Positions 12,001 through 15,000 of a stretch of 45,436 nucleotides of DNA are shown piece by piece. The DNA comes from a virus (lineage: Duplodnaviria > Heunggongvirae > Uroviricota > Caudoviricetes), in IMG/VR virus record IMGVR_UViG_641736226_000030; one strand, given 5' to 3'. Position 1 is the stretch's first letter, and every line of letters begins with the position of its first letter. Made by a program: the position numbers.

Positions 12001-15000
12001 GCAAGATTACCCGCAAGCTCCTTCCGTGCTTCGCCAAACTGTTTCTGATACCCCAGATTTGTGGTGCCAGCAATATTGTCGTACTGCTGCTCACTGTTCA
12101 GGTCATCGACCTTTTCCATGAAGTTATCTTCAGCCGGGCGGAGGATATTTTTGTAATCCTGCCACCCTTTCCAGGCCACTTCTTCCTGTGCTATTTGCGC
12201 TGCTGTTGGTTTTACTTTGGTATCACCACCGCCTTTACTTCCACCCATAATGGCCCCCTGGATAACAAAAAACCCTGCCGGAGCAGGGTCAGAATGTGAA
12301 TTACAATGTTGGTTTAAACACAATGATGAAAACTGTAGCAGTCAGACCGCTATCCTGAACACCATGAAGCCATCCTCATCATCCGGCATTCGCTCAAAGC
12401 CCAGTCGTTTTCCCAGCCGGATAAATCCCCGCCTTGCCGTATGGAACTCAGCCCAGCGTCCGCCAGCCAGATGGGTTAATGTCTTCACCTCCGGCAGGTA
12501 ACGCTCAACGCTGTTACTCCCCGTACACACGCCCAGCAACACCAGAACATAAGGGATACCATCAGCACTGAGCACAGAACGCAGCACCAAAAAGCCATCA
12601 GGTGCCTCAAAACAAAACGCCTGCTTTTTAAGGCAGGCGTCTTTAACTTCATTCATAAATTCAGGGTTGCGGGAATTTCTCACAACACGCTGCATATACC
12701 AGAGAATTTTATCGTTCATTCTCTCACCTGAAACGGGTGCCATATCGGCTGAACCTCAGCAACCAGTTGACGGGGACTCTCGTCCCCGTCGCGGTTTTCC
12801 TACTGCTTACACTGTAAGAACGCCGCAAACTCCGCTCCCCACAAATTCAGCCGGAACTCACACAGTGAACCGTGCAACATCCAGATGGTGAAGATAACCG
12901 TCATGCAAATTGTGACGGTGATAAGCGATTTTTGCGACATAGCGCTTGACTCCTTTTACAGAGAGGCGCTAACCTTCTACTTGCTTAAGGTACGAAGTGT
13001 TAGGGCCTCGGGTTAACGTTAAGTTGACTCGGGGCCTTTCCACATCAGGCCTTCAGGTTCACCCTCCAGCCATCAGCCGAAAGGCACCCACGCATAATTT
13101 ACGGTTTTTGCCCTGTACGGGCAATAAAAAACCCGCCATCACAGCGGGTAGTAAACGGTTACCGGATACAGGTCAGAATTTCAGGCCAATGCCAGCAGTA
13201 ACGCCACTCGTGCGCCAGTCGCCAGAGCCGAAACCTTCGTAAGCCACATCCAGTGTAACACTCTCATTCAGGTTAAACTGTGCACCTGCAGCCCACGCAA
13301 GGGAGGTTTTTTTCGTGCTGTTGCTTTCAGAAAATCCGCCACTACTGTTAATATTGTCCTTAATTTTCAGGTCAGCGCTAACTTTAGCAACGCCCATCCC
13401 TGCCATCGCATATAAACTCATGTACTGATTAACCCGCCATGAAGGCCCCGCTAACAGACTCCAGTAATTCGCCCTGATATCCGTTCTGGCAGAAGCTGCC
13501 GGATTCTTAATCTTCCTGGTATGATCGGCTGACTGCACATCAATAAATGTCTGTGAGTTAGTGAGAGAACGCGTCCATGTAAAAGAGGTGATAACGCCAA
13601 AATCATCCGTTATCTCGTAGCGATACCTGATATTAATGCCCTGTGGATTTTTATCCTTGCCTTCATATCCACTGACCCGACCATCTGTATATTCGCCCAA
13701 TGAAGAAAAGTAGTTTCTGTTGACGAAATGACTGAAAGTCTCCCTGTTATGAGCAGTCGCATCCTTTACAAAATCCTTCAGTCCCGGAAACTGAAAGTGC
13801 GCATACCCCAGAGAAATTGTATGGTTTCCTTCTGCTGCATGTGCAGATAAATTTACACAGGCAATCCCGGAGATTGCACACACAACCAGTGTTGCTATAC
13901 TCTTCATTTAAGATATCCTGTATTCAGATAACACGCTAAACTTTTTAATAATACATCTTTTTAGACATTTTAAATGAATATTAAAGACTCGCTTCAACTA
14001 ATCATATACTGATGTATTAATAACCAAGACCTTATCTATATACGGCTTTCGAATATCCCATGTTGCACCGCCGGAATAATGCTCACAGGAATATATTTTA
14101 TTTCCTGTAGCACCAGTGGATGTGGTATAAATCGGTCGATCATAAGGAGTTCTTTTCCAGTTATAATACCCGACCAGTGCAGGCATGATTGCGCATGGAT
14201 ATCCAAGGTCCTTTTCAAATTTGATATCAACAGGTATTAACTTCGCGTCAAGCAGCATCATTTCGCCATGATAAATCATCTCACCGTCCGGGTTATACAT
14301 GGCGATACCATACTCAGAAGGTGGAGTAACCATATTCGCGAAAGCATAAACCGTCGTAACACCAGGGTTCGTTCCCCTGACAATTACATGAAGCCTTAGT
14401 GCATGATATCCATCAATCTGTTCATGCGTGTACATGACATCGGCCTTCTTCTCTGTTCTGATAAAGAAAAAACAACTTTTGCCTGACGGGATTGATGTTT
14501 TAAAAAAAGACTTTTCAGTCGCCGGTATGGTGCCTTTGTTGATCAGACACTGCGGCGTAAAACCTGGACTTATCCATACGCTGCCATCCGGCTTCATAAT
14601 GCTCAAACCATACATGACACTTATCCCCAGAATGTATAAATATAAGATCCCATACCCTGCTCAAGATTCGACCACGTCACCGTATTGCCATTAATGGTTA
14701 TCTTCGGTACTTTCCGATCCGCAAATACATTATTCCAGGGAAATAAACAACATACAGCCTGCAATGATTTCCCGTCGGGTTTATTCGTGTACGTCTTTGA
14801 GCCAGACTCCGCTGTAAATCTGTCCAGGAAAAATACCGGAGTCAACACGCCCGTAACATTAACGTTATTTCTGTTATAAATGGCAAAACCGTATTCCAAT
14901 ACTCACCTCCTGATCAGCGTAATCTGCCTATGCGAACAGCCAGTCGTCCATTCTGATCATAAACCTCAATTTTATCATTGCGGATCACCAGTCCTACATT

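What the first reader, a model, noticed from the sequence alone, without database searches (positions are those of the whole stretch)
12750..13120. Unannotated hok-like type I toxin gene with candidate antisense promoter
A 46-codon minus-strand ORF (12800-12940) encodes MSQKSLITVTICMTVIFTIWMLHGSLCEFRLNLWGAEFAAFLQCKQ, with a perfect AAGGAG SD. It has the Hok/Gef layout: one transmembrane helix followed by the SLCE...AAF(L/M) motif. It is below the 60-aa ORF-track threshold. Hok toxins are normally controlled by an overlapping antisense RNA (Sok) and can cause post-segregational killing or phage exclusion. A TTGACT-N18-TAACCT promoter-like element on the plus strand at 12946-12975 points into the hok leader and could drive such an RNA.
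Basis: partly seen in the sequence, partly recalled or inferred. Interest (0 to 1): 0.65.

Follow-up and report, generated by a model that had tools for sequence, protein, structure and literature searches.

The report
Known Hok toxin gene beside lom
The small ORF is a genuine Hok-family membrane toxin gene with a Sok-type antisense RNA, sitting next to lom in a Shiga-toxin prophage; the gene is already annotated in RefSeq and its peptide was reported toxic in a recent preprint, so it is real but largely known.

Summary
ORF 12800-12940(-), its AAGGAG SD and the plus-strand TTGACT-N18-TAACCT element lie exactly where stated.

The peptide passes Pfam HOK_GEF (33.2 bits against a cut-off of 22). 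The DNA is 100% identical in 933W, VT2-Sakai/Sp5 and hundreds of STEC genomes, where RefSeq calls it "Hok/Gef family protein". The exact peptide is entry 72_1589 in a 2025-26 Hok catalogue preprint and was among the homologues found toxic on overexpression.

It is not the published hokW-sokW locus, which is a different sequence about 13 kb away in 933W and is absent from this window.

Comparison of 45 diverged versions shows a self-contained module of about 390 bp:
- its own promoter;
- a 5' end that pairs with the 3' end (tac/fbi style), with an alternative local partner;
- an antisense promoter homologous to the validated sokW promoter;
- a Sok-shaped RNA;
- a hypervariable patch exactly opposite the predicted Sok 5' tail.

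Unlike R1 hok/sok and hokW, this copy has no mok reading frame, so how Sok blocks translation here is inferred only.

Verdict: a real, correctly interpreted, already-known family member. Locus-specific regulation and biological role are untested.

The parts
13096..13124 (-). Candidate hok promoter: -35 TTGCCC (13124-13119), 17-nt spacer, -10 TAAATT (13101-13096). It lies just downstream of the lom terminator (13149-13131).
   Evidence: Read from the sequence. The hexamers and spacing are conserved at the 5' edge of the homology block in diverged loci. It aligns with the hokW promoter region (TAGAAT, then GGGTGC). The generic scan does not call it (8/12).
12735..13089 (-). Predicted core hok mRNA (355 nt), from +1 (about G13089) to the end of the fbi-like element.
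   Evidence: The Rfam RF01794 hit starts at 13089 with model position 1. On the validated hokW locus the same model starts at the mRNA 5' end. Homology among 45 versions begins and ends at these points. The MFE is -155 kcal/mol, z = -6.7.
13079..13089 (-). tac-like 5' element GGGUGCCUUUC. It has two mutually exclusive partners: the 3' end, or nt 50-59.
   Evidence: It pairs with 12741-12735 in the MFE of 44/45 homologues. It pairs with 13040-13030 in the RNAalifold consensus and after 3' trimming.
13030..13040 (-). Internal partner of the 5' end (GAAAGGCCCC, mRNA nt 50-59).
   Evidence: The segment is nearly invariant, so covariation cannot test this pairing.
12735..12741 (-). fbi-like element GGCACCC, complementary to the 5' GGGUGCC. 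It marks the 3' edge of the conserved module.
   Evidence: It is invariant in 45/45 versions and the flanks beyond it are unrelated. Helix 1 is 98.7% paired.
12946..12975 (+). Antisense (sok-type) promoter: -35 TTGACT (12946-12951), 18-nt spacer, -10 TAACCT (12970-12975).
Evidence: The -10 is conserved in 44 of 45 homologues (TAAGCT in L063) and the TTG of the -35 is conserved. The 933W sokW promoter is TTGCCT-N17-TAACCT at the homologous position, and mutating the sokW -10 abolished antitoxin activity (PMC8621323).
12982..13040 (+). Predicted Sok-like antisense RNA of about 58 nt: a single-stranded 5' tail of about 20 nt, then a 16-bp hairpin followed by UUU.
   Evidence: The TSS is placed by homology to the annotated sokW (6 nt after the -10). 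The fold has z = -5.3. The hairpin pairs fully on the plus strand through G.U pairs that are C.A mismatches on the hok strand (sequence). No expression data are available.
12982..13002 (.). Hypervariable patch (mRNA nt 88-108), which is the complement of the predicted Sok 5' tail.
   Evidence: 65% of columns are polymorphic here, against 7% in the CDS, tac and 3' UTR, among 19 near-identical versions. Two copies from one genome differ here.
12950..12955 (-). hok Shine-Dalgarno AAGGAG. It overlaps the sok -35 on the other strand and is sequestered by the upstream CUCU in the full-length fold.
   Evidence: Sequence. The probability that the SD is unpaired is 0.01 full-length, 0.27 after 3' trimming and 0.01 with the Sok target blocked.
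12800..12940 (-). hok CDS: 46 codons plus stop, one TM helix, then SLCE...GAEFAAFLQCKQ with two conserved cysteines (C27, C44).
   Evidence: The exact peptide is 72_1589, tested for toxicity.
12768..12791 (-). Stable 3'-UTR stem-loop (GACGGGGAC...GUCCCCGUC).
   Evidence: Helix 18 is 99.8% paired and three of its pairs show compensatory changes (AU/GC/CG).
12608..12640 (-). Possible transcription terminator for hok transcripts (hairpin followed by UUUUGUUUUG). It lies inside the annotated L0129 ORF. Whether it belongs to the hok unit is uncertain.
   Evidence: Terminator scan. The related clade has its own terminator about 25 nt after the fbi, whereas this clade has none until here.

Best explanation
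This is a complete hok/sok-type type I toxin-antitoxin module of about 390 bp (13124-12735), carried as a moron between lom and L0129 in a VT2phi_272/933W-type Stx2 prophage.

Shown here:
- The ORF encodes a Hok-family peptide belonging to a 46-aa subfamily. This is cluster 72 of the Escalera-Maurer catalogue, which reports the exact peptide as toxic.
- The module has sharp, conserved boundaries and a highly structured mRNA.

Inferred:
- A constitutive promoter makes a stable hok mRNA whose 5' end (GGGUGCC) pairs with its 3' end (GGCACCC). This keeps the SD buried.
- Slow 3' trimming removes the fbi. The 5' end then re-pairs with nt 50-59, the leader refolds and the SD opens.
- A short, unstable plus-strand RNA (about 12982-13040), made from TTGACT-N18-TAACCT, pairs with leader nt 50-108 of that mRNA.
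- This copy has no mok frame. Sok probably acts either by freeing the anti-SD CCUCU to re-close the SD, or by RNase III cleavage of the duplex, or by both.
- When Sok supply stops, Hok is made and depolarises the inner membrane. Sok supply could stop on loss of the prophage, or on induction, when antiterminated late transcription running head-on could occlude the sok promoter.
For: - Family profiles: Pfam 33.2 bits against a cut-off of 22; PHROG_251 at 85.8 bits.
- Annotation: RefSeq annotates the identical DNA as Hok/Gef. The exact protein occurs on at least 1000 contigs.
- Toxicity: the exact peptide was cloned (LRP157, 72_1589). Only three other constructs were non-toxic.
- Module boundaries: they coincide with the promoter and the fbi in diverged loci.
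- Structure: 5'-3' closure appears in 44/45 homologues, with z = -6.7. On the named structure 93% of cells are paired against 37-42% in slid controls, and 21 pairs show double changes against 11 +/- 1.8 in shuffles.
- Switch: the refolding on 3' trimming is reproduced in silico.
- Antisense promoter: it is homologous to the validated sokW promoter.
- Sok shape: a tail plus a hairpin.
- Recognition region: hypervariability is confined to the Sok 5' tail complement.
- Selection: all 10 polymorphic CDS sites in the clade that shares this protein are synonymous, and family pN/pS is 0.28.
- Direct switch: SD accessibility goes 0.01, 0.27, 0.01 across the three states.
Against: - There are no expression data for either RNA.
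- The generic sigma-70 scan calls neither promoter.
- The Rfam sok model scores 35.6 bits, below its gathering score of 59.
- There is no mok frame in this copy. The canonical route by which Sok controls hok is therefore missing, and the copy could be translationally dead.
- The predicted SD opening after trimming is small, or absent, in many homologues.
- No terminator follows the fbi in this clade, so the true 3' end is unknown.
- The tac, fbi and anti-tac segments are nearly invariant, so those particular pairings are not supported by covariation.
- The clade used for the count of synonymous sites was partly defined by protein identity.
Confidence: 0.85

Rival explanations
1. This is a decayed, translationally silent hok relic. 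The toxin ORF and RNA elements persist, but without mok the peptide is never made from the native locus, as was proposed for several E. coli K-12 chromosomal hok loci.
For: No ORF starting upstream overlaps the hok start in this copy. The leader ATG at mRNA nt 45 runs only 8 codons. 18 of the 45 versions have some ORF that starts upstream and overlaps the hok start, and some sister versions differ from the window by single-base indels that restore a 61-codon read-through ORF. No terminator follows the fbi. The preprint recalls that chromosomal hokA, hokB and hokC did not mediate post-segregational killing.
Against: 27 of 45 versions, spread over both clades and several genera, lack such a frame. 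Mok-lessness therefore looks like the normal state of this subfamily rather than a recent lesion. The peptide is under purifying selection. All regulatory RNA elements are intact and conserved. The Sok-tail patch is diversifying, which makes sense only if the Sok-hok interaction is under selection.
Confidence: 0.12
2. This is simply the published hokW-sokW locus of 933W/Sp5, already characterised by Takada et al. 2021.
For: One phage record labels the ORF 'MokW-like host killing'. The DNA is 100% identical in Sp5/VT2-Sakai and 933W.
Against: Published HokW is 51 aa, MKQQKAM...DYESEK (primers). It lies at 58460-58734 in 933W, whereas this locus is at about 45.4-45.9 kb. The two peptides are 36% identical. 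Neither hokW nor its flanks are in the window.
Confidence: 0.01
3. This is a chance small ORF in the lom to L0129 intergenic region, with a fortuitous promoter-like match.
For: The ORF is short. Both promoters match the consensus at only 8 of 12 positions.
Against: Profile matches are significant. The 46-aa length is conserved across genera. pN/pS is 0.28. The RNA is more structured than shuffled versions.
Confidence: 0.01

Closest known systems
Hok cluster 72 (entry 72_1589) of Escalera-Maurer et al., bioRxiv 10.1101/2025.08.07.668861
   Same: The peptide sequence is identical. It is catalogued as a high-abundance Hok cluster and was cloned and tested on overexpression. The text lists only three other constructs as non-toxic.
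   Different: That study analysed coding sequences only. It explicitly did not analyse Sok, Mok or mRNA elements, and it does not discuss this lom-adjacent position.
hokW-mokW-sokW of phage 933W / Sakai prophage Sp5 (Plunkett 1999 annotation; Takada et al. 2021, PMC8621323)
   Same: Both occur in the same type of phage, are co-oriented with the late genes and share the leader architecture. The shared elements are GGGTGC at the 5' end, GAAA(A/G)GCCCC, the -10 TAACCT of sok and the overlap of the sok -35 with the hok ribosome-binding region. For hokW the TA function, the RNase III/Hfq contribution and induction-triggered Hok production have been shown.
   Different: The toxins are only 36% identical. 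hokW has an in-frame mokW extension of 70 codons, whereas this copy has none. The Rfam sok model scores 113.5 bits on hokW against 35.6 here. The position differs (about 13 kb apart in 933W), and hokW is absent from this window.
hokA-sokA of E. coli
   Same: HokA is the best NCBIfam match. Both cysteines are hard-coded (...SLCE...FAAFL(A/Q)CK...), so no TadA Y-to-C recoding is needed.
   Different: The score is far below the HokA equivalog cut-off (38.4 against 89). This peptide is 46 aa against 50 aa for HokA. This locus is phage-borne rather than chromosomal.
hok/sok of plasmid R1 (Gerdes paradigm)
   Same: The following are shared: 5'-3' end pairing (tac/fbi), refolding after 3' trimming, a Sok of about 60 nt with a single-stranded 5' tail and a terminator hairpin, and a sok promoter embedded in the hok translation-initiation region. 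The R1 features are from my own knowledge of the Gerdes-lab literature.
   Different: This copy has no mok frame for translational coupling. The predicted Sok duplex ends 27 nt upstream of the hok SD. No terminator follows directly after the fbi in this clade.

Membership tests
Hok/Gef toxin family (Pfam PF01848) | Score at or above the Pfam gathering threshold | tested here: met
   33.2 bits against a cut-off of 22, E 4e-8, covering residues 8-44. PHROG_251 gives 85.8 bits over the full length.
Hok/Gef toxin family (Pfam PF01848) | A peptide of about 50 aa with one N-terminal TM helix and a conserved (S/D)LCE motif in the periplasmic tail | tested here: met
   Alignment A1 shows L26, C27 and E28 invariant or nearly invariant, and a second invariant cysteine C44. 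The peptide also aligns with the catalogue sequences.
Hok/Gef toxin family (Pfam PF01848) | Toxic to E. coli on overexpression | not testable with these tools
   Reported for the identical peptide 72_1589 (LRP157). 42 of 45 constructs were toxic, and the three exceptions are other sequences. I did not see the drop-assay figure itself.
HokA orthologue (NCBIfam NF007290 equivalog) | Score at or above the curated equivalog cut-off | tested here: not met
   38.4 bits against a cut-off of 89.
hok/sok type I TA locus (R1 paradigm) | A cis-encoded antisense RNA with its own promoter overlapping the hok leader | tested here: inconclusive
   The sequence features are present: TTGACT-N18-TAACCT homologous to the validated sokW promoter, a conserved -10 and a Sok-like fold. 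The generic scan does not call the promoter, and no transcript data could be examined.
hok/sok type I TA locus (R1 paradigm) | 5'-3' end pairing of the full-length mRNA (tac/fbi) with an alternative 5' fold after 3' processing | tested here: met
   Met in silico. The end helix is 98.7% paired but invariant, so there is no covariation for it.
hok/sok type I TA locus (R1 paradigm) | A mok reading frame that starts in the Sok target and overlaps the hok start (translational coupling) | tested here: not met
   No ATG/GTG/TTG ORF that starts upstream crosses the hok ATG in the window or in 26 other versions out of 45. The hokW control shows its 70-codon mokW.
Rfam RF01794 (sok / hok leader) | Score at or above the gathering score | tested here: not met
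   35.6 bits against 59 (E 4.4e-6 in 1.2 kb), over the full model length 1-157. The validated hokW locus scores 113.5.
hokW-sokW (Takada 2021) | Same locus or sequence as the published system | tested here: not met
   The peptide, position and leader all differ.
hok/sok type I TA locus (R1 paradigm) | Post-segregational killing, RNase III cleavage of the Sok-hok duplex, an unstable Sok and a stable hok mRNA | not testable with these tools
   Requires experiments.

The most novel reading that the evidence does not exclude
Cluster-72 hok loci are a naturally mok-less branch of the hok/sok family. In this reading Sok controls hok translation directly. Binding leader nt 50-108 releases the anti-SD CCUCU, which re-closes the SD, and RNase III cleavage may add to the effect. 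Rapid diversification of the Sok 5' tail keeps the several copies in one STEC genome from cross-talking. In 933W/Sp5 this locus would act alongside hokW, so the published delta-hokW-sokW phenotype (half the phage release, 40 min delay) would underestimate the contribution of Hok toxins to lysis timing.
Probability: 0.3. Interest if true: 0.45.

Novelty: already known. Interest (0 to 1): 0.25.

Why it matters
The practical value is mostly in annotation. The original 933W and VT2-Sakai records and many phage records leave this toxin gene out.

The only functional study of Hok in Stx phages (hokW-sokW in Sp5) did not mention that Sp5 carries this second hok module, 100% identical to the one here. 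Any redundancy between the two would affect how that knockout is interpreted.

For type I TA biology, the subfamily offers a natural test of whether a hok/sok system can work without mok. It also gives a clear example of diversification confined to the antisense recognition tail. None of this changes the basic picture: it is a recognised Hok family member.

Tried and rejected
- Equating the locus with the published hokW-sokW. Rejected from the primer sequences, the coordinates and 36% peptide identity.
- Treating the GTG-13043 ORF (24 codons) as a mok equivalent. Rejected because indels in close variants shift its frame and it stops 28 nt before the hok ATG.
- Treating ATG-13045 (8 codons here) as mok. 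Its start is conserved, but the same bases are structural, and read-through exists only in a minority of versions. This is left open as unlikely.
- The search for related loci with the bare 46-aa peptide failed because the query was too short. I solved this by using alignment A1.
- The genome-contig scan gave only 7 loci, several on evidently contaminated assemblies (Xanthomonas, Vagococcus, Planococcaceae titles).
- The generic promoter scan called nothing, so the promoter claims rest on homology and conservation.
- A literature search for hok + 933W + lom found nothing. I found no paper describing this locus's RNAs.
- A search for other Hok genes in the window found none.
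Full report
**1. The observation**

The minus-strand ORF at 12800-12940 exists and translates to MSQKSLITVTICMTVIFTIWMLHGSLCEFRLNLWGAEFAAFLQCKQ. AAGGAG lies at 12955-12950, 9 nt before the ATG. On the plus strand, TTGACT (12946-12951), an 18-nt spacer and TAACCT (12970-12975) are as described. The ORF sits between an Ail/Lom gene (13173-13907, Pfam PF06316), which has its own terminator (13149-13131), and a 133-aa ORF of unknown function (12342-12743).

**2. Family membership of the peptide**

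- Pfam HOK_GEF scores 33.2 bits against a cut-off of 22, E 4e-8.
- PHROG_251, 'MokW-like host killing', matches over the full length at 85.8 bits.
- NCBIfam's best hit is the HokA equivalog, but at 38.4 bits against a cut-off of 89. It is therefore HokA-like and not a HokA orthologue.
- A homology search found a coherent subfamily of 46-aa proteins in E. coli, Shigella and Salmonella down to 59% identity; related loci were also found in E. albertii and Citrobacter. M1, Q3, K4, C27, A39, L42, Q43, C44 and K45 are invariant.
- Pooled pN/pS over the family is 0.28.

**3. It is already annotated and catalogued**

The 501 bases around the ORF are 100% identical in many STEC chromosomes. RefSeq annotates WP_000078907.1 there as 'Hok/Gef family protein'. 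The same DNA is 100% identical in 933W, VT2-Sakai/Sp5 and other Stx phages. The original 933W record leaves the interval between lom and L0129 empty, so 'unannotated' is true only of older records. The exact protein is present on at least 1000 contigs under the names Hok/Gef family protein, protein HokA and small toxic polypeptide.

The preprint by Escalera-Maurer et al. (10.1101/2025.08.07.668861) catalogues 1264 Hok peptides. Its Table S2 lists this exact peptide as 72_1589, in a 'high-abundance cluster', cloned as LRP157. The text states that 42 of 45 tested homologues were toxic and names the three that were not: 19_179, 60_1482 and 69_1540. By that statement the peptide is toxic on overexpression. 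The authors say they did not analyse Sok, Mok or the mRNA structure.

**4. It is not the published hokW-sokW**

Takada et al. (PMC8621323) showed that hokW-sokW of Sp5 is a functional type I TA system that promotes lysis and phage release after induction. Their HokW is 51 aa. The primers give MKQQKAM... and ...DYESEK. In 933W, hokW, mokW and sokW are annotated at 58460-58734, about 13 kb from the lom-adjacent locus at about 45.4-45.9 kb. HokW and this peptide are 36% identical. 933W/Sp5-type phages therefore carry two different hok modules, and the paper's Introduction, Results and Discussion, which I read, do not mention the second.

The window itself is the reverse complement of the right 45.4 kb of a VT2phi_272-type Stx2 prophage. 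Bases 1-2500 equal HQ424691.1 63456-65955, including attR, at 100% identity. It contains neither hokW nor the 933W flanks of hokW, and it has only one Hok-like ORF.

**5. Anatomy from comparison**

I fetched 87 related loci and aligned 45 distinct versions of the region. Homology begins at a promoter-like TTGCCC (13124-13119), N17, TAAATT (13101-13096), followed 7 nt later by GGGTGCC (13089). It ends at GGCACCC (12741-12735). Beyond those points the flanks of different clades are unrelated. That defines a portable module of about 390 bp.

In the Stx-phage clade the module is always between lom and L0129, although the lom alleles are only 64-99% identical. The 76%-identity clade lies in other contexts and has its own terminator about 25 nt after GGCACCC.

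**6. mRNA structure**

- The 355-nt RNA folds with the 5' GGGUGCC paired to the 3' GGCACCC (z = -6.7 against shuffles).
- The same closure appears in the individual MFE of 44 of 45 homologues. I chose the ends by these motifs, so this test is partly circular.
- On the alignment, the window's MFE structure is 93% paired, against 37-42% when the partners are slid. 21 pairs show changes on both sides, against 11 +/- 1.8 in shuffles (0/500). Clear compensatory pairs occur in the 3' stem-loop (12791-12768) and in a long-range helix between the leader and the 3' UTR.
- RNAalifold instead pairs the 5' end with GAAAGGCCCC (nt 50-59).
- Trimming 30-60 nt from the 3' end switches the window's MFE to that alternative and lets leader nt 80-125 form its own hairpin.
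- This two-partner behaviour of the 5' end is the tac/fbi logic described for R1 hok (my knowledge of the Gerdes-lab work). The tac, fbi and anti-tac segments are almost invariant, so covariation neither supports nor contradicts those pairings.

**7. The antisense RNA**

The Rfam 'sok' model (RF01794) hits 13089-12927 on the minus strand at 35.6 bits, below its gathering score of 59. On the validated hokW locus the same model hits the hok-sense strand from the mRNA 5' end to the hok ATG at 113.5 bits. The model therefore describes the hok leader, and the window's hit is a full-length but weak match.

The annotated sokW starts 6 nt after a TAACCT -10 that is preceded by TTGCCT-N17. Mutating that -10 abolished antitoxin activity. 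The window has TTGACT-N18-TAACCT at the aligned position. The complement of the -10 (AGGTTA) is conserved in 44 of 45 homologues, and the TTG of the -35 is conserved. By homology the TSS is near 12982.

The RNA from 12982 to about 13040 folds as a free 5' tail of about 20 nt plus a 16-bp hairpin followed by UUU (z = -5.3). Four of those pairs are G.U on the plus strand, which are C.A mismatches on the hok strand. That argues that the hairpin is selected in the antisense RNA.

Among 19 near-identical versions, 65% of columns are polymorphic in the 21 nt opposite the predicted Sok tail (13002-12982). The figure is 7% in the CDS, the 5' element and the 3' UTR. Two copies from one genome differ there. 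Diversification confined to the recognition tail is what is expected if the Sok-hok interaction is real and copies must avoid cross-talk. The generic promoter scan calls neither promoter (8 of 12 each), and I had no transcript data.

**8. What is missing: mok**

In R1 and hokW, Sok blocks translation of mok, to which hok translation is coupled. The hokW control shows a 70-codon frame crossing the hok start. In the window no ATG/GTG/TTG ORF that starts upstream crosses the hok ATG. The hok frame is closed by a TAA just upstream. The -1 frame is closed by the TAG that is part of the conserved sok -10. The leader ATG at nt 45 runs only 8 codons. 27 of 45 versions lack any such frame, and the 18 that have one use different starts. 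I conclude that mok is not a conserved feature of this subfamily.

A direct mechanism is plausible. In the full-length fold the SD is paired with the upstream CUCU. After trimming, GCCUC pairs with GAGGC (nt 80-84) and the SD loosens. Blocking the Sok-complementary stretch returns the SD to the closed state. The probability that the SD is unpaired goes 0.01, 0.27, 0.01, and for the AUG 0.24, 0.55, 0.18. The effect is small or absent in many homologues, so this remains a hypothesis.

**9. Role**

Nothing here tests function. By analogy with hokW, Hok could be produced on prophage induction and advance lysis. The gene is co-oriented with the late operon: the tRNAs, STnc100 and AsxR that flank the stx genes in phages of this type lie upstream on the same strand. 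Antiterminated late transcription would therefore run head-on into the sok promoter. This is my inference. Prophage maintenance by post-segregational killing, or exclusion of other phages, are equally untested alternatives.

**10. Verdict**

The gene is a recognised, annotated Hok family member whose peptide has been reported toxic, so the finding is already known at the gene level. Three points are new in the sense of not being found in the literature I could search:
- the description of the module's RNA elements;
- the absence of mok;
- the fact that this is a second hok module in phages whose hokW has been studied alone.

Noticed in passing
window 12719-12743 and 12342-12743 (-): The annotated start of the 133-aa ORF L0129 (ATG 12743) overlaps the hok fbi element. 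PHROG_610 matches only residues 9-133, and homology with loci that lack L0129 breaks about 4 nt after the fbi. The true start is therefore probably ATG 12719.
   Followed up: partly
window 12608-12640 (-): A strong intrinsic-terminator-like hairpin followed by UUUUGUUUUG lies inside the L0129 ORF. The same hairpin scores on the plus strand too. It may end hok transcripts, since this clade has no terminator right after the fbi.
   Followed up: partly
window 1-2500: The left end of the window is 100% identical to the attR end of phage VT2phi_272 (HQ424691.1 63456-65955). The window is therefore the right 45.4 kb of that type of Stx2 prophage, reverse-complemented. Unlike 933W/Sp5, this arm has no hokW-sokW.
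   Followed up: yes
window 16722-16838 (+): An ALIL pseudoknot (the frameshift element of IS3-family transposases) scores 121.5 bits. This indicates an IS element inserted among the tail-region genes.
   Followed up: no
window 36857-37116 and 38525-38773: STnc100 (36911-37116, -), the anti-sRNA AsxR (36857-36909, +) and three tRNA genes (38525-38773, -) are present. This is the usual neighbourhood of stx2 in these phages.
   Followed up: no
L004 1203-1377 (933W hokW locus): Rfam RF01794, named 'sok antitoxin', is modelled on the hok-sense strand (the hok mRNA leader from +1 to the hok ATG), not on the Sok strand. The strand of its hits is therefore opposite to the antitoxin gene.
   Followed up: yes
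L017, L019, L028 (hok at 1501-1638): Some copies keep the hok CDS, the sok promoter and the fbi but have unrelated sequence in place of the hok promoter and the 5' tac element. They look like 5'-truncated modules.
   Followed up: partly
L054, L059, L062, L074, L079, L082, L083: Several IMG/VR contigs of the 76%-identity clade end exactly 3 nt after the hok stop codon. This hok type therefore often sits at the very edge of predicted prophages or contigs.
   Followed up: no
L005, L006, L008 (genome contigs): Near-identical E. coli-type hok loci appear on short contigs of assemblies titled Xanthomonas pisi, Planococcaceae MAG and Vagococcus sp. These are most likely contamination rather than true hosts.
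   Followed up: no
window 13173-13907 vs loci L012-L055: lom alleles next to an identical hok peptide range from 64 to 99% protein identity. The lom and hok modules therefore recombine independently.
   Followed up: partly
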